Positions 21,001 through 27,000 of a DNA stretch of 64,000 nucleotides are shown here, piece by piece. The position numbers are program-made. The DNA comes from Vulcanimicrobiota bacterium. Lineage in GTDB: Bacteria; Vulcanimicrobiota; Vulcanimicrobiia; Eremiobacterales; Eremiobacteraceae. Location: positions 256,001-320,000 of the forward strand of contig CAWETU010000001.1 of assembly GCA_963812135.1 (NCBI GenBank), read 5' to 3'. How positions within the stretch are numbered: the stretch's first letter is position 1; every line of letters begins with the position of its first letter.

Positions 21001-24000
21001 CAAGCGGTACGAGATCGCGTCGTGCAGCACCCAGGTCGAGTTCTGATAGCGTGCGCGCGGCGCCACGAGCAGCGACAGTAGCGTGTCAGCGCGATACACC
21101 TGTACGGTGATCTCCGCGAGCTGCTGCGTGGTCGTGTCGAAACCGCCTGCGTATGTCACCTGCGCGTCGCCGTTGGGAAGCCGCGTGCGCACGACCTCGT
21201 TCGAGAGGATGTTCACGTTGCCCGACTGGATCTCGCTTTGCAGGATCTCATTGGCTCTGGCCGTCGCGCCCGGCACCACGAACTCCTGAAACCCCAGCGC
21301 GATGAGCGACGCGAGCAGGCCGACTGCCGCCACCGGCGCTGCGATGCGATAGAGGCTGACGCCGCCGGCGCGCATCGCCGTGATCTCCGAGTCTCCCGAC
21401 AGCCGGCTCATCGAGAGCAGCACCGACAGGAGCATGGACATCGGGAAGGTCAGCACGAGCGTCTGCGGCAGCGTATAGATGAAGTATTTCGCCGCAGCCA
21501 GCAGGCTCGCGTGCTCTTCGGAGACGAGCCGCGCGACGTTGAGCAGCTCGCCCGCGACGAAGAGCAGCGTGAACGCGGCCAATCCGAACAAGAACGGGCC
21601 GCCGAGCTCGCTGACCATGTAACGGTCGAGCAGCTTCACAGACGAAAGCTCTCTCCCAGGTAGAAGCTGCGTGCGACCGGCGAATCGGCGACGTCTTGCG
21701 CGCTGCCCGACACTTCGATGCGGCCGCGGTTGAGGATGTACGCGCGATCGACGATCGCGAGCGTCTCGCGCACCGAGTGGTCGGTGATGAGCACGCCCAG
21801 CCCCTTGGCCTTGAGCAGGCGGATGATCTCTTGGATGTCGGCGACCGCGATCGGGTCGATGCCGGTGAAGGGTTCATCGAGCAACAGGAACGCCGGATCG
21901 GTCGCGATGGCGCGCGCGATCTCGACTCGCCGGCGCTCGCCGCCCGACAGCGTCTCCGCCTTTGCGTGGATGAGGCCTTCGAGGCCGAACTCACCGAGCA
22001 GCGTGGGCAGGCGTTCGTCCTGCTCGTGGCGCGGCACGCCGCGCTGTTCCCAGATGAGCCGGATGTTGTCTTCGATCGTCAAGCGCCTGAAGACCGACGA
22101 CTCCTGCGCGAGGTATCCCAGCCCTTCGCGCGCGCGCATGTGCATCGGCTGGTGCGTGATGTCCACTCGCGAGCCGTTGTCGCCGACCAGCAGCACCTCG
22201 CCGTCGTTCGGGCGCACCAGGCCGACCACCATATAAAAGGTAGTCGTCTTGCCGGCGCCGTTGGGGCCGAGCAGCCCGACGACTTCGCCGCCTCGCACGT
22301 TGAGGCTCACGTGGTCGACCACCGTCCGCGGGCCATAGCTCTTCGTGAGTCCGCGGACATCGATCTCTTTCGGCGTGCCTGTCGGTTGCAACGCTCCTAC
22401 TTTCCGAACGTCATGGTCTGCTCGCCGTTGGGACCCCAAACGCGGACGCGGCGCAGATCGAGGTCGGCCTCTGCGCGATCGCCGTCGATTGAGTTGCCGC
22501 GGTCGTCGTTCGCTTTGACGTGACCAGCCGCGATGAGCACGTGGCGGTTGCCGTCGTATTCCATGGAGTCCGCGGACATGGACGACCCGTTTGCGGCCCC
22601 GGCCCGGACACCGCCGCTGAGCGCGACGTTGCGGTCGTTCGGGCGCACTTCTGCTGTCGGGGCCGTTACCCTCATGCGCAGCGTCCTTCCTTTATAGAAG
22701 CTGAGGAGGACGTTGCGCAGCGTTCCTTTTGAATCCGCCGTCTGATACTCGACTTCGTCGGCGCGCAACAAATACTCGAGCAGGCCGTTGTGGATCTCTT
22801 TGAGTTCGACCGGCCGGCCCGGTTCGGCACGCGCGATGATGTAGTATGGTGGTTGCGCCTGCGCGCTGGTGGACGGATTCGGGGTCGGGTTGGCCGGCGC
22901 CGGCGACTTGCTCGCGCAGCCGGCGAGCAGCGCGACGACACCGAGCGCGGTGACGGCGATCGTCGCGCCCGATCGGAACGTAGGACCCGAGCGAAGCTCT
23001 GGTGTACGCTCGAGCGAAGCTCGAGCATCGTCGACATCCGCACTGCGCCGGCCCAGCGCGAACATAAGCCCCATCATCGGCCACCATAAAAGGAAGACGA
23101 ACGTCGACACGACGTCGAGCACGTTCTGGAACGCGGATGCGATGAACGCAGCCGCCAAGCCATAGAACAGCAGGGTCCGCTCACGATCGTCCGACGAGAT
23201 CTGCCGGATGGTCCGTCGCGCCTGCGCGACTCCAGCGACGACCAGCCAGACGAACGCGGCGAATCCGAGCAAACCGTTCTCGACGAGCACGTTGAGCGAC
23301 AGATCATGCGCGTGGACCTCGTCCACCGCGGCATCCGGCTGTTTGAGCATGGGATACACTTTGGAAAAACCCAGCGGGCCGACGCCGGTCAGCGCGAAGC
23401 GCTCCGCCATGCGAACCGCGCCCTGCCATACGGCGATGCGCGACGGGTTCTCGCTCGGATCGTGGGCGACGTCGCGAAAGCTGGTCGTGCCCAAGATCAG
23501 CGCGACGATCGCCGCACTCACGTACGTCGCGCGCGCCGCGCGGCCGAATCGCCAGACGAGGATGGGCAAGCCGATGATGAGGCCGAGCCACGCCGCGCGC
23601 GACACCGAGAGCGCCAGCGCGATCGTGCCGACGATCGCCGCAGCGGCGCCAAGCCGCCGGAGCAGCAGCGGGGCACCCGCCTGGGCTATCCCGAGCGCGA
23701 TGAAGAACAGCAAGTAGCCGCCGAACTCGTTCGGCTGCAAGAACGTCCCTGCGGCGCGCCCGTGCTGGTACGCGAACATCTCGGGCGGATGGCGCGTCAA
23801 CGTGAGCGCGACGCCGAACACCGTCGCCGCGATGCCGACGGTGAAGTAGCACGTGAGCAAGGTGCGCCGGACGCGGTCATTCGACATATTCCAAAAGATC
23901 GCGACGAACGCGATGAAGTTGCCGACCTCGCACACGAGCTCGAACGCGCTCGACGCCGGGGAGACGCCGATCGCGCCCGCTAGTGCAGCCGTCGCGATCA

Positions 24001-27000
24001 CCGCGAGCAGTGGCAGCGCGAGCGGCGGCTGGACGAGCGCGTGCCAACCGCGGCGCAGGATCACGGCGACGAACGTCACCAGTGAGGCGATCATCATCAC
24101 GATCAGGAGGACGACCGCATAGATCCGGCCGCCGACCGCGATGCCTCGCGGCACGACGTCGGCGAGCAAGACGAGCATCGGCAGCACCGGCCCGAGTGTG
24201 AAGAAAGCGAACGGGAGCACGAGCTCGGCGCGCCGCCCGAAGGACAACGGGTTGGTCACCCGGTGTTCTGCGACGCTAGCGCGAGCACAGCCTCCGCGAC
24301 CGCGTTCGCGCCGCCCGGTCCTCCCATGCGCGACCTTCCAACCTGACCCATCGCTCGCATCCGATCCGGATCGCGCAACAAGGCGACGAAATCTTCGGCG
24401 AACCGGCGATCATCGTCGGGCAAGACGAGCAGCGCATCTCCAAGGAGCCGCTGCTGACGCATGCGATACCAGCCGACGCTGGCCGGATCACCCATCGGCG
24501 ATGAAGCGACGACCGGCAGCCCCAAGCCGGCTGCTTGTTCGTTCGCGGTGCCCGCTTGGCCGAGCACGATGTCGCAATCGGCCAAGAGATCACCGAATTC
24601 TCCGGCGACCAAAGTCACGTCGAGCGGCCCCGCTTTTCCGCGCGCCACGACACCGGACTCGCTCTCCGTTGGCGCGAGCGTTGCTCCCGCGCTCTCGCAT
24701 GCCGCGACCAGCGCGCCCGCGGCGACGCCCGGCGCAACAGAGATCAACGCCTGGACCGGCCGCGGCGCAAGCAGTCCGGCGACCAGCGCGAGGCGCCGAA
24801 CGGCGGCGGCCGCGTTGTCTGGCGCGTCCGCCCGGCTGCCCGGCAGCACGCCGACGTGGACCGCGCCAGGGATCGCTCCGAGATCCACGCCGTGCGGTGC
24901 GAGGCCGTCCATCATCAAGTTGCCGGCATAGCGCGCCGGCACCCCCGCATCGGCAAGCGCGCGCGCCGTCTCCGCGTCGCGTGCGAACACGACCCGCGCC
25001 CACCGCGCGATCGCTCGCTCGAGCGCCGAGTGCCCGGCCACGTGTTCCGACTTGGCCGTCGCGACGAACACCGTCGGGCGTCGCGCGAAGTAGAGAGACG
25101 CCGCGAGCGCGTACACGTCGCCGACCGCGACGACGACCGTGCGCGCGCGTTGCCGTCGCAAAAACGCGAATTGGCGCAGGGTCAGCGACAGCAGACCCGC
25201 GCGGACGTCGCGCGCAAGGTTGCGCAGGTTCCAGTATGCGATCAATCCGCCGCTCGGCATCTGCGCCTGCGGGCCGACCACACGAGTCGCCGTCGTAGCG
25301 GTCGTAGCGGTCGAATTTATTCGACCGAACTCGCCGACCAGCGGGAAATGCTCGATCGTGGCGTTGGGTGCGCGCGCCGCGATCGCGTCCGCGAGATAGC
25401 CTGCGATGGCGGCTTCGCCGTACCCGTTGCTGACCAACAGAATATTTGGAGCGGTCGAATCTAATCGACCGGGCGTTGGATTCATCCGACCGTTCGTCCG
25501 AGCAACGGCACCAGGCGAAACGACTTCACGCTCGGCCGTTTGCCGTTGCCTAAGTCCAATTCGAGGCTGCCGGCATTTTCCGCGTACGCACCCGCGTGGA
25601 CGATCGGCACGCCCGCGACAATCTCGGGATCGCGCAGCGTGTGGTGGCTATGGCCGCCGATGATCGCGCCGATGCTCGGATACGCGCGCGCAAGCTCGCG
25701 ATCGGCGTCGAGCCCCAAGTGCGAGAGCACGAGCGTGACGTCTATGCCGTCGTCCGGCGTGAGCAGCTCATCCATCGCCGCTTGCACGGATAAGAATCGC
25801 CAGCCGAAGACCGTCTCCCAGCCGCTTCCCGTGCGATATTGCGGCGCGAGCAGCGCGAGCAGGCGAACGCGCGCCCCGCCCGCCTCCACGACGAGCGAGC
25901 GCCGATACGGCGGCGTCCGGTCGCGCAGATCGAGTAGATTCGAGCAGATCATGGGCATGGGCATGGCTTTGGCGCGCGCCTCGAACCAGGCGTGGACATA
26001 GTGGAACTCGCGGTTGCCGACCGCTTGCGCGCGATACGGCGCCGCAGCGAACTCGCTCGTCACGGGCTCGACTCGCCGGTAGAGCGTCGACGAGCCGCTC
26101 AGGCTGTCGCCGCAATCCACGAGCAGCGCCGAGGGTTCGACGAGCGCGGCGAGCTTGCGGCCGAAACCGCGGCGCCCGTGCACGTCGGCGGTGTGGTAGA
26201 CGACGAGCGTGCCGGCGCTCATGCGGGCTGCGCCGTCTCCATCGTCGCGGCGACGAAGCGGGCGATCCGCGCGAGCGAATCCGGCGGCCCGAGCACCGTG
26301 CGCAGGGCCGCATAACCGCGCAGCTGCGATTCGCGCTCGGCGCTGTCGGTGAGCAGCGCAGTCGTGCGTTCGACGAGATGCTCGGGCGTCAAGTCATCCT
26401 GCAGCAATTCGGGGACGACGCTTCGGCCGAGCAACAGATTCGGCAGGGTGAGCGGCCCGCGGACGAACTGCGGCACCCGGCGTTGCGCGATGCGATATTG
26501 TGCGCGACTGATCGCGTAGAAAGCGATTTGCGGCACCGCACGCAGCGCCGTTTCCAACACCGCAGTGCCGGACGCCACCCACGCCAGGTCGGTGGCGAGC
26601 ATGGCATCTTGGATCGCGGCGCCGCGCGCGATGACCGGCCGGCCGGCGCTCATCCGTGGCCAGCATCGCTCGATCTGCCGGGCGCGCGCCTCCGAAGCGC
26701 CGGCGATGACAAACGTCGCGCGCACGCTCGCGGTCAGCATCGACGCCGCTGACGCAAGACGCGGCAGCATGAGGTCGATCTCTTCGCGCCGGCTGCCCGG
26801 GAATATGACGATCCGCGGACCGTCGGCCGGCTCGAGTTCCAACTGTGCCGGCCACTGCGCCGCTCGAGTCACGCGCGGCGCGATCGCCGAGACCAGTGGA
26901 TGGCCGAAAAATTCGCAGCGCAGGCCGAGCCGGTGATAGAAATCGCGCTGGCGCGCAAACGGCGTGAGCGGTATCGCGACGCGCGCGACCTCACGCGCCT

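What a model noticed while it worked through the whole genome (the two positions that open the first line are those of the whole stretch)
22397..24259. O-antigen ligase (WaaL-like) fused to LptC in the LPS cluster
g00267 (620 aa) joins a multi-pass Wzy_C/O-antigen-ligase domain to a periplasmic LptC domain through a retained LptC-type membrane helix; it sits directly upstream of lptB (g00266) and lptF/G (g00265) inside the lpxDCAB-bamA-tamB cluster. The fusion is conserved in the family, whereas other Eremiobacterota have a separate ~410-aa ligase, arguing that the last step of LPS assembly is physically coupled to entry into the Lpt bridge.
Evidence so far: Pfam Wzy_C 207-337 (E 1e-16) + LptC 490-606 (E 3e-12); NCBIfam LptC; sequence with clean linker. 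26 of the 120 listed homologue clusters (96-47% identity; 25 of 548-632 aa, one truncated) carry both PF04932 and PF06835, the remaining listed ones are mostly 380-480-aa ligases with PF04932 only. Gene order g00262-g00279.
(Added by a program. Inside this text positions count along the whole contig: contig position 256,001 is position 1 of the stretch shown here. "Call 12" and the like, gene names such as g00115 and contig names such as C1 are that model's own, and its searches are not shown. The text may have been shortened before it was handed on; [...] marks where a part breaks off. The agent that wrote the report below was given it as the finding of a first reader that could run no searches.)

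Follow-up and report, generated by a model that had tools for sequence, protein, structure and literature searches.

The report
O-antigen ligase fused to lipoprotein LptC
One gene in an uncultured soil bacterium joins the enzyme that probably finishes lipopolysaccharide to the first protein of the export bridge, but the joint carries a conserved lipoprotein cleavage signal, so the two may be cut apart after insertion.

Summary
Window 22397-24259 (-) is one uninterrupted 620-aa ORF with a 12-helix WaaL-like domain (Pfam Wzy_C; model vs WaaL 7TPG Z 23.7) and an LptC beta-jellyroll (Pfam and NCBIfam above cut-off; Z 17.2 vs LptC). It lies between a lpxB-related gene and lptB-lptF/G in an lpx-skp-bamA-tamB cluster.

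The fusion joins two genes that are adjacent, ligase then lptC, across the class. It is fused in 7 of 15 genomes of the family and split-adjacent in 8. An AU test rejects a single fused clade (p 0.0005), so the state changed at least 2-3 times.

The "retained LptC membrane helix" is really the signal peptide of a lipoprotein. Stand-alone LptCs of the phylum start with a lipobox (15 of 15 representatives). The lipobox Cys (C448) is invariant in 28 of 28 fused homologues although the linker around it is hypervariable. lgt, lspA and lnt are present.

My best reading (about 0.5) is that the precursor is lipidated at C448 and cut by LspA into a ligase and a lipid-anchored LptC. Fusion would then give co-synthesis, not a permanent tether. 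A permanent tether (about 0.3) is not excluded. This is a new variant of known parts, of moderate interest.

The parts
22397..24259 (-). Whole fused ORF, 620 aa plus a TAG stop (P0001)
23057..24259 (-). Residues 1-401: 12-helix WaaL-like (Wzy_C, GT-C) domain. The conserved residues lie in predicted periplasmic loops: H166-G-R168, R221, H266-D-P-S-E-N, R274, R287, H316, H318.
   Evidence: Pfam; AF2 model; Foldseek and VIA vs 7TPG; invariant columns; hydropathy and charge
22970..23056 (-). Residues 402-430: hypervariable, charged linker (6 K+R, 5 D+E), predicted cytoplasmic. It takes the place of the n-region of the LptC signal peptide.
22916..22969 (-). Residues 431-448: hydrophobic h-region helix ending in the lipobox L-A-G-C, with the invariant C448
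   Evidence: C448 invariant in 28 of 28 fused homologues, strict lipobox core in 26 of 28; helix 432-447 in the model; aligns with the membrane helix of LptC chain 6mjp_C
22850..22915 (-). Residues 449-470: Pro/Ala/Ser/Thr-rich flexible tether (pLDDT under 50)
22400..22849 (-). Residues 471-620: LptC beta-jellyroll
   Evidence: Pfam and NCBIfam; VIA Z 17.2 vs 6mit_C and Z 15.2 (rmsd 1.7) vs 3my2
21636..22439 (-). lptB. The longest ORF starts at 22439 and overlaps the fusion. An in-frame TTG at 22391-22389, 5 nt after the fusion's stop and just behind GGAG, is the likelier start.
   Evidence: TIGR04406 327.6 bits, above cut-off 240; sequence
20554..21639 (-). lptF/G permease, one of two paralogues. 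The other lies at G000:C1:469452-470486, outside the window.
24256..25485 (-). Upstream gene: lipid-A-disaccharide-synthase-related protein (TIGR03492). Its stop overlaps the fusion's GTG start.

Best explanation
The gene encodes a precursor made of an O-antigen-ligase-type enzyme and the LPS-transport protein LptC. The enzyme has the WaaL fold with 12 membrane helices and both ends in the cytoplasm. The two halves are joined through LptC's own lipoprotein signal peptide.

In this phylum LptC is a lipoprotein, not a helix-anchored protein. Its gene always follows the ligase gene with almost no gap, so losing the ligase stop codon fuses the two. This has happened repeatedly.

Proposed working. 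The hydrophobic segment 431-447 inserts as a 13th helix, from inside to outside, and carries the LptC domain into the periplasm. Lgt attaches diacylglycerol to C448. LspA then cuts before C448 and Lnt adds a third acyl chain. The products are a ligase with an extra C-terminal helix and a lipid-anchored LptC on a tether of about 22 residues, which docks on LptB2FG.

On this reading the fusion guarantees equal synthesis and birth of the ligase and the Lpt entry point at the same membrane site. It does not create a permanent covalent tether.

Shown here: the ORF, both domains and folds, the topology logic, the invariant lipobox Cys, lipoprotein LptC in relatives, the presence of lgt, lspA and lnt, and the adjacency and recurrence of the fusion. 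Inferred: ligase activity, lipidation and cleavage.
For: - Domains and folds. WaaL 7tpg_B gives Z 23.7, rmsd 4.7, 360 of 403 residues aligned. LptC 6mit_C gives Z 17.2. The SEDS proteins FtsW and RodA score only 14.4 and 12.2.
- Topology: hydropathy and charge distribution fit 12 helices with both ends inside plus one helix running in to out. All invariant polar residues fall in the predicted outer loops.
- Stand-alone LptC of split relatives starts with a signal peptide plus a lipobox Cys. This holds in 10 of 10 loci read and 15 of 15 representative proteins. Of those 15, 13 meet a strict lipobox core.
- In fused proteins the Cys is kept in 28 of 28 and the strict core in 26 of 28. Over the flanking linker positions (403-447, 449-470) the commonest residue is shared by only 0.37 of rows on average.
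- Three more distant fused proteins (P0126, P0134, P0140) also keep a Cys in lipobox context.
- Own genome: lgt, lspA, lnt. No LolA was found with PF03548 in this 98.4% complete genome, which fits retention in the inner membrane.
- The fused ORF is the only membrane-anchored LptC. The other PF06835 matches are LptA-like proteins with an ordinary signal peptide.
- There is no internal start codon.
- Ligase and lptC are adjacent in 11 of 11 cases where both matches were listed. Gaps are 0-14 nt or the genes overlap, and in three loci (L019, L025, L027) the lptC start follows the ligase stop in frame.
- The fused state is polyphyletic: 3 changes on both trees, and the AU test rejects one clade at p 0.00046.
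- The two other Wzy_C paralogues lie in polysaccharide clusters beside phosphoglycosyl transferases. That leaves this copy as the likeliest LPS ligase.
- An engineered lipobox on E. coli LptC is processed in part (Wilson and Ruiz 2022, PMC9544173, passages read).
Against: - No experiment or proteomic evidence shows lipidation or cleavage.
- I found no description of Lgt or LspA acting on a lipobox placed after 12 membrane helices. The phrase search 'internal lipobox' gave 0 papers. The search 'signal peptidase II + polyprotein + lipoprotein' gave 3 papers, none relevant by title or abstract.
- If cleavage made the fusion neutral, its persistence through a clade of 25 clusters down to about 60% identity needs no advantage, but it does not prove neutrality either.
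- Wilson and Ruiz state that a lipid-modified LptC appears non-functional in E. coli. A lipoprotein LptC must therefore work differently here, perhaps through the long tether.
- The catalytic residues of the ligase domain could not be matched one to one to CmWaaL R191, R265 and H313. No sequence-level match to any PDB chain was found.
Confidence: 0.5

Rival explanations
1. Permanent tether. The fused protein stays in one piece. Helix 431-447 acts as LptC's membrane anchor and may sit at the LptF/G lateral gate like the E. coli LptC helix. The ligase is then held next to LptB2FG, so freshly ligated LPS is handed straight to the transporter.
For: - One ORF with no internal start.
- The helix plus jellyroll superposes on full-length LptC from LptB2FGC structures: 6mjp_C aligns to model 428-608.
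- The fusion recurs in several lineages, which could reflect selection for proximity.
- The ligase-lptC-lptB-lptFG order holds across the class.
- A precedent for an O-antigen ligase fused to the neighbouring pathway step exists: WadA, GT25 + GT121 (PMC9938171 and PMC10920833, passages read).
Against: - The lipobox Cys is invariant in 28 of 28 fused proteins inside a hypervariable linker. A plain anchor helix would not need it.
- The hydrophobic stretch before the Cys measures 12-26 residues in 27 of the 28 fused rows. This fits a signal-peptide core as well as a stable membrane helix. The 28th row (P0014) has an Asp two residues before the Cys, so its run counts as 1.
- Half of the family and the sister family do well with separate genes.
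Confidence: 0.3
2. The N-terminal domain is not the LPS O-antigen ligase. It would be another Wzy_C-family enzyme, such as a polymerase, a ligase for a different acceptor, or an IctB-like protein of unknown role, that merely shares an operon with lptC.
For: - The best NCBIfam match is the IctB family (TIGR00947, 82.7 bits, E 2.6e-23, residues 53-399), not a WaaL model.
- Pfam Wzy_C covers ligases and polymerases alike.
- There is no sequence-level match to solved WaaL.
- The genome has two further Wzy_C genes that could be the ligase.
Against: - The IctB score is far below that model's cut-off of 366.
- WaaL is the top structural match over the whole domain, well above SEDS.
- The other two paralogues sit in sugar-polymer clusters with initiating transferases and a Wzc-like protein, as polymerases do.
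- This copy is wedged between lipid A and Lpt genes throughout the class.
Confidence: 0.2
3. Artefact: a sequencing or assembly error removed a stop codon, and the two genes are really separate here too.
For: In close relatives the two genes are separated by a single stop codon or a few bases.
Against: - Fused ORFs occur in 27 of the 120 listed protein clusters (26 by precomputed Pfam domains, plus P0022 by alignment), carrying various source labels (jgi, ena, ncbi, lgn).
- They also occur in 7 genomes, three of them of the same genus (G071, G087, G134) at 74% identity.
- The old lptC start codon is gone.
Confidence: 0.02

Closest known systems
WaaL O-antigen ligase (CAZy GT121; Cupriavidus metallidurans WaaL, PDB 7TPG)
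   Same: Twelve-helix GT-C fold over the whole domain (Z 23.7, 360 residues aligned). A Pfam Wzy_C hit. A long outer loop before helix 10 carries invariant Arg and His residues. This matches the description of two Und-PP-binding Args and an acceptor-activating His (PMC10920833, passages).
   Different: Only 16-17% identity and no sequence-level PDB match. It carries a C-terminal extension made of linker, 13th helix and LptC. Activity and the residue correspondence are untested.
LptC of LptB2FGC (E. coli, Enterobacter, Vibrio; PDB 3MY2, 6MIT, 6MJP)
   Same: Beta-jellyroll fold (Z 15-17). Pfam and NCBIfam hits above cut-off. Encoded directly upstream of lptB and lptF/G.
   Different: The anchor is a lipobox signal peptide rather than a permanent N-terminal helix. 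A tether of about 22 residues follows the Cys. It is fused behind a 12-helix enzyme. Wilson and Ruiz 2022 predicted that a few natural LptCs are lipoproteins (PMC9544173). Here that is the rule for a whole phylum-level group.
WadA of Brucella and Mesorhizobium (GT25 core glycosyltransferase fused to a GT121 O-antigen ligase)
   Same: An O-antigen ligase domain fused to the protein of an adjacent step of the LPS pathway (PMC9938171 and PMC10920833, passages read).
   Different: WadA joins the previous step, a cytoplasmic glycosyltransferase, at the N-terminus. Here the next step, entry into export, is joined at the C-terminus. In Brucella the ligase is dispersed while Lpt sits at growth sites.
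ABC importers with the lipoprotein-type substrate-binding domain fused to the permease (OpuA and GlnPQ type). Recalled from memory, not checked here.
   Same: A periplasmic or extracytoplasmic partner that is elsewhere a separate lipoprotein becomes fused to a polytopic membrane protein through its former signal sequence.
   Different: Different families. Whether those fusions keep a lipobox Cys was not examined.

Membership tests
O-antigen ligase WaaL (Pfam PF04932 Wzy_C; CAZy GT121) | Wzy_C domain above Pfam's gathering score | tested here: met
   58.5 bits against 31.7, residues 207-337
O-antigen ligase WaaL (Pfam PF04932 Wzy_C; CAZy GT121) | Twelve-helix GT-C(B) fold like solved WaaL, closer than to SEDS polymerases | tested here: met
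   7tpg_B Z 23.7, rmsd 4.7, 360 aligned (model 8-406). FtsW scores 14.4 and RodA 12.2. Foldseek E 6.4e-7.
O-antigen ligase WaaL (Pfam PF04932 Wzy_C; CAZy GT121) | Two Und-PP-binding Arg and one acceptor-activating His on the periplasmic side (CmWaaL R191, R265, H313) | tested here: inconclusive
   Invariant R221, R274, R287, H316 and H318 lie in predicted outer loops. No residue-level alignment to 7TPG could be obtained.
O-antigen ligase WaaL (Pfam PF04932 Wzy_C; CAZy GT121) | Transfers Und-PP-linked glycan to lipid A-core | not testable with these tools
   Context only: LPS/Lpt operon; paralogues in polymer clusters
LptC (PF06835; TIGR04409) | Family models above their curated cut-offs | tested here: met
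   Pfam 44.7 against 21; TIGR04409 50.1 against 38
LptC (PF06835; TIGR04409) | Beta-jellyroll fold like solved LptC | tested here: met
   6mit_C Z 17.2; 3my2 Z 15.2 with rmsd 1.7
LptC (PF06835; TIGR04409) | Single permanent N-terminal membrane helix (E. coli type bitopic protein) | tested here: not met
   The hydrophobic segment ends in an invariant lipobox Cys, both in fused proteins and at the N-terminus of stand-alone orthologues. The literature says this feature is not universal in the family (PMC9544173).
LptC (PF06835; TIGR04409) | Encoded with lptB and lptF/G; the only membrane-anchored jellyroll protein of the genome | tested here: met
Bacterial lipoprotein (Lgt/LspA/Lnt substrate) | Lipobox ending in Cys after a hydrophobic core | tested here: met
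   L-A-G-C448. The strict core (pattern recalled from PROSITE PS51257) is met in 26 of 28 fused and 13 of 15 stand-alone proteins.
Bacterial lipoprotein (Lgt/LspA/Lnt substrate) | Signal peptide at the N-terminus of the precursor | tested here: not met
   In the fusion it lies at residues 431-448, after 12 helices. In split orthologues it is N-terminal.
Bacterial lipoprotein (Lgt/LspA/Lnt substrate) | Processing enzymes present in the genome | tested here: met
   lgt, lspA, lnt
Bacterial lipoprotein (Lgt/LspA/Lnt substrate) | Actual lipidation and cleavage | not testable with these tools
   No experiment

The most novel reading that the evidence does not exclude
The protein is lipidated at C448 but stays whole, or a fraction of it does. 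It would then be a 13-helix enzyme carrying a mid-chain lipid hinge that pins the O-antigen ligase to the LptB2FG gate, forming a ligation-extraction supercomplex that passes only finished LPS into the bridge. Even the cleaved version would be new in kind: Lgt and LspA would act on a lipobox buried behind a 12-helix protein, a natural membrane polyprotein split by signal peptidase II.
Probability: 0.3. Interest if true: 0.75.

Novelty: new variant of a known kind. Interest (0 to 1): 0.55.

Why it matters
How finished LPS finds the Lpt machine is not settled. In Brucella the ligase is dispersed while Lpt sits at growth sites, and LPS is thought to diffuse between them (PMC9938171).

A phylum in which the ligase gene always precedes lptC, and has fused to it several times, gives a natural system for asking whether ligation and extraction are coupled.

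The invariant internal lipobox also offers a clean test of whether Lgt and LspA can process a signal placed after a polytopic protein. In addition, LptC can evidently be a lipoprotein as the rule, not the exception, in a deep-branching diderm lineage.

No paper found by my searches describes any of this. Database annotations already name both domains.

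Tried and rejected
- Complex prediction of the ligase domain (1-420) against the mature LptC part (448-620), both with alignment A2: no answer, score 0.00 in two runs, controls not run. This counts neither for nor against binding.
- Sequence searches against PDB found nothing useful. The single protein gave 0 hits at E<=1. The profile of A2 gave only two insignificant hits, one of them an LptC chain at E 0.77. The profile of the ligase-only alignment A3 gave 0 hits at E<=10. A residue-by-residue match to WaaL's catalytic residues was therefore not possible.
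- The WaaL structure paper is not held by DOI.
- The protein Atlas returned only ligase clusters of the same phylum and held no structure.
- The word-index search with the LptC part among long proteins found only this family's fusions, 19 hits.
- The exhaustive representative search found three further fused forms. One is named as the same phylum by its source. All three are closest to the sister family's ligases. Of the 13 longer or both-domain-spanning hits that I scanned with Pfam out of the 150 listed, only these three carry LptC. Two carry TPR repeats, and four carry the Wzy_C domain in their C-terminal half behind an unassigned N-terminal part. None combined Wzy_C with LptC outside this group. 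The other 137 listed hits were not scanned, and only the best 150 of 3721 hits were listed, so fusions elsewhere are not excluded.
- The genome-contig scan gave 20 loci, all titled Eremiobacterota/Vulcanimicrobiota MAGs or apparently mislabelled bins. None was a cultured strain.
- Earlier findings of this scan: nothing.
- An assembly artefact was rejected (see rivals).
- Independent translation of LptC from an internal start was rejected for this gene.

Full report
**1. What is there**

The ORF at window 22397-24259 on the minus strand encodes 620 residues. Its GTG start overlaps the TGA stop of the upstream gene (GTGA). It ends in TAG. An in-frame TTG for lptB lies 5 nt further on, just behind GGAG.

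Pfam finds Wzy_C at 207-337 (58.5 bits, cut-off 31.7) and LptC at 490-606 (44.7 bits, cut-off 21). NCBIfam finds LptC (TIGR04409) at 436-606, 50.1 bits against a cut-off of 38. For the N-terminal part its best match is the IctB family, at 82.7 bits against a cut-off of 366.

The gene lies in one long minus-strand array. In order the array reads:
- tamB, bamA, three OmpH/Skp genes
- lpxD, lpxC, fabZ, lpxA, lpxB
- a metallophosphoesterase and a lpxB-related protein (TIGR03492)
- the fusion
- lptB, one lptF/G, DUF3084 and an SLH-domain porin-like protein

**2. Fold and topology**

An AlphaFold2 model was built on an 80-row alignment (A2). It has mean pLDDT 82.6 and pTM 0.71. Its elements are:
- twelve long helices up to residue 401
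- a short helix at 407-418
- a helix at 432-447
- a disordered stretch at 447-469
- a beta-jellyroll at 473-617

Against the PDB the best match is the O-antigen ligase WaaL: Foldseek E 6.4e-7, and VIA Z 23.7 with rmsd 4.7 and 360 of 403 residues aligned over model 8-406. The SEDS polymerases score clearly lower (FtsW 14.4, RodA 12.2).

The C-terminal part matches LptC: 6mit_C Z 17.2 and 3my2 Z 15.2 at rmsd 1.7. In 6mjp_C the alignment starts at model residue 428, so it takes in the helix.

Hydropathy and the distribution of Lys and Arg fit a protein with both ends of the 12-helix domain in the cytoplasm. A charged linker (402-430, 6 K+R) follows, and then a 13th hydrophobic segment runs from inside to outside.

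All invariant polar residues of the family fall in the predicted outer loops. They are H166, R168, R221, H266-D-P-S-E, R274, R287, H316 and H318. This agrees with the published description of WaaL, which has two Arg that bind Und-PP and one His in a long periplasmic loop: R191, R265 and H313 in the solved enzyme (PMC10920833, passages read). I could not align these residue by residue, because no sequence-level match to any PDB chain was found.

**3. The joint is a lipoprotein signal peptide**

Reading the DNA of split relatives showed that their stand-alone lptC begins with a short positive stretch, a hydrophobic core and a Cys in lipobox context. This held in 10 of 10 loci. The 15 stand-alone LptC representatives returned by the exhaustive search show the same, 15 of 15, and 13 of 15 meet a strict lipobox core. 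The pattern for the strict core is recalled from PROSITE.

In the fusion the same element sits at 431-448 and ends in L-A-G-C. Among 28 fused homologues of 48-96% identity, C448 is invariant and 26 of 28 keep the strict core. Over the flanking linker positions the commonest residue is shared by only 0.37 of rows on average.

The genome encodes Lgt, LspA and Lnt. LolA was not found with PF03548 in this 98.4% complete genome.

The other PF06835 matches in the genome are LptA-like multi-jellyroll proteins with an ordinary signal peptide. There is also no in-frame start codon between residues 400 and 469. The fused ORF is therefore the cell's only source of anchored LptC.

**4. Where the fusion came from**

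I searched 201 genomes of the phylum with the whole protein. Matches fell in 158 of 201 genomes. All 15 genomes of the window's family matched (14 of 14 plus the window's own), as did 114 of 114 and 3 of 3 in the two other families of the class.

Within the window's family the match runs through both domains without a stop in 7 of 15 genomes:
- G000, G071, G087, G134 (one genus)
- G041
- G128 and G187

G128 is marked unpublished. The statement for its genus also rests on G187.

In the other 8 genomes (G067, G103, G116, G154, G165, G185, G186, G188) the ligase and lptC are separate genes. In all 11 cases where a separate LptC match was listed, 4 of them from the sister family, it lies directly after a ligase match on the same strand.

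The gaps are 0-14 nt or the genes overlap. In L019, L025 and L027 the lptC start codon follows the ligase stop in the same frame, so one base change would fuse them.

I built a tree of the ligase domain with FastTree (131 rows, 393 columns).
- Rows labelled 'split' were defined by length (395-440 aa) or by reading the locus.
- Left out were P0017 and P0028 (truncated), six proteins of other lengths, and L015.
- The fused rows fall in three separate groups of 25, 3 and 3 rows.

An IQ-TREE 'quick' tree of 48 rows agrees, with 3 changes, and its starred branches force at least 2. The AU test rejects a tree holding all fused rows together (lnL lower by 72, p 0.00046).

Three more distant fused proteins also carry both domains: P0126, P0134 and P0140, at 28-32% identity to the query. 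Their ligase parts are closest to split ligases of the sister family. One of them is named Candidatus Eremiobacteraeota by its source.

The fusion is thus recurrent. As far as I searched it is confined to this phylum.

**5. Is the N-terminal domain the LPS ligase?**

The genome has three Wzy_C genes. The other two lie in sugar-polymer clusters:
- One is near a Wzc-like protein, sugar-nucleotide enzymes, GT4 transferases and a Bac_transf phosphoglycosyl transferase.
- The other sits directly beside a Bac_transf phosphoglycosyl transferase, with a GT-C-like protein and an epimerase nearby.

That setting suits polymerases. The copy studied here is fixed between lipid A genes and Lpt genes throughout the class. 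Together with the WaaL-like fold this makes it the best candidate for the ligase, but this remains an inference.

**6. How it most likely works**

The invariant Cys is hard to explain if the segment were only an anchor. It is expected if LptC must still be lipid-modified.

I therefore favour the following sequence. The 13th segment exports the LptC domain. Lgt modifies C448. LspA cuts before it. The ligase, now with an extra helix, and a lipid-anchored LptC on a flexible tether of about 22 residues then part, as in the split species.

On this view the fusion is cheap to make and nearly neutral, or it helps by giving equal amounts and a shared site of insertion.

The rival is that the protein stays whole and pins the ligase to the LptB2FG gate. 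That fits the single ORF and the recurrence of the fusion, but it leaves the Cys unexplained.

Wilson and Ruiz (PMC9544173, passages read) made three relevant points:
- The LptC helix is not conserved, and a few natural LptCs are predicted to be lipoproteins.
- An engineered lipobox on E. coli LptC is only partly processed.
- The modified form seems non-functional there.

Processing of such a helix is therefore possible. A working lipoprotein LptC probably needs features absent from E. coli LptC, such as the long tether seen here.

**7. Comparison and novelty**

The parts are known families: WaaL/GT121 and LptC. The architecture is already visible in database annotations.

I found no paper describing a ligase-LptC fusion, the class-wide adjacency, or an internal lipobox. 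The searches were made, judged from listings and abstracts. I read passages of PMC9544173, PMC10920833, PMC9938171, PMC5007114 and PMC9758169.

The nearest precedent for a fused O-antigen ligase is WadA, which joins the preceding glycosyltransferase step.

I rate this a new variant of a known kind. Interest is moderate, because the claimed physical coupling is not shown, but the system makes it testable.

Noticed in passing
L017-L027 (loci of G186, G188, G185, G116, G165, G103, G067, G154, G163, G073); proteins P0147-P0260: Stand-alone LptC throughout this class starts with a lipoprotein signal peptide (lipobox Cys). Behind the Cys comes a Pro/Ala/Ser-rich tether instead of a permanent membrane helix.
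   Followed up: yes
window 25482-26222 (-): A 246-aa calcineurin-like phosphoesterase sits between lpxB and the lpxB-related gene. It may be the UDP-2,3-diacylglucosamine hydrolase (LpxH/LpxG-like) of this lipid A pathway. NCBIfam only gives weak SoxB/UshA-type matches.
   Followed up: no
window 24256-25485 (-): A TIGR03492 'lipid-A-disaccharide synthase-related protein' (232.8 bits, cut-off 219.2) lies directly upstream of the fusion. No waaA, kds, lpxK or msbA gene was seen among the window's ORFs that I scanned. Its role, perhaps a first core glycosyltransferase, is open.
   Followed up: no
window 30659-33309 (-): Three consecutive OmpH/Skp-like genes (141, 476 and 264 aa) lie between lpxD and bamA. 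The 476-aa one has a long N-terminal part with no family match.
   Followed up: no
window 16238-18904 (-) and 19612-20547 (-): An 888-aa protein has an N-terminal SLH domain and a weak match to cyanobacterial-type porins (NF033921). It resembles the OmpM-type tethers between outer membrane and wall of Terrabacteria diderms. A DUF3084 gene lies between it and lptF/G.
   Followed up: no
G000:C1:398799-400644 (L037:6799-8644, outside the window): An LptA-like protein with several jellyroll repeats and an ordinary signal peptide appears split over two overlapping reading frames. The first frame runs into Arg-rich nonsense after about 190 residues. This may be a frameshift or a sequencing error.
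   Followed up: partly
G000:C1:466981-469425 (L038:4980-7424, outside the window): An 814-aa ORF lies next to the second lptF/G gene and two ORFs away from lnt. It has no Pfam match and only a faint LptD match (NF002997, E 3.3e-6). It may be a divergent LptD.
   Followed up: no
window 44745-61807: The chromosome origin neighbourhood lies only about 11 kb from the LPS/outer-membrane cluster. It holds gyrB, a DciA-domain protein, dnaN and dnaA on the minus strand, then rnpA, yidC, jag, mnmE, mnmG, a CCA/poly(A) polymerase-type gene, parA and parB on the plus strand.
   Followed up: no
P0129, P0142: Related Wzy_C proteins of 538-707 aa carry C-terminal TPR repeats instead of LptC. This is another C-terminal fusion partner for this ligase family.
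   Followed up: no
L039, L053, L054: Three public bins whose titles read 'Candidatus Binatus sp.' or 'uncultured proteobacterium' carry this Eremiobacterota-type locus at 43-71% identity. Their taxonomic labels look wrong.
   Followed up: no
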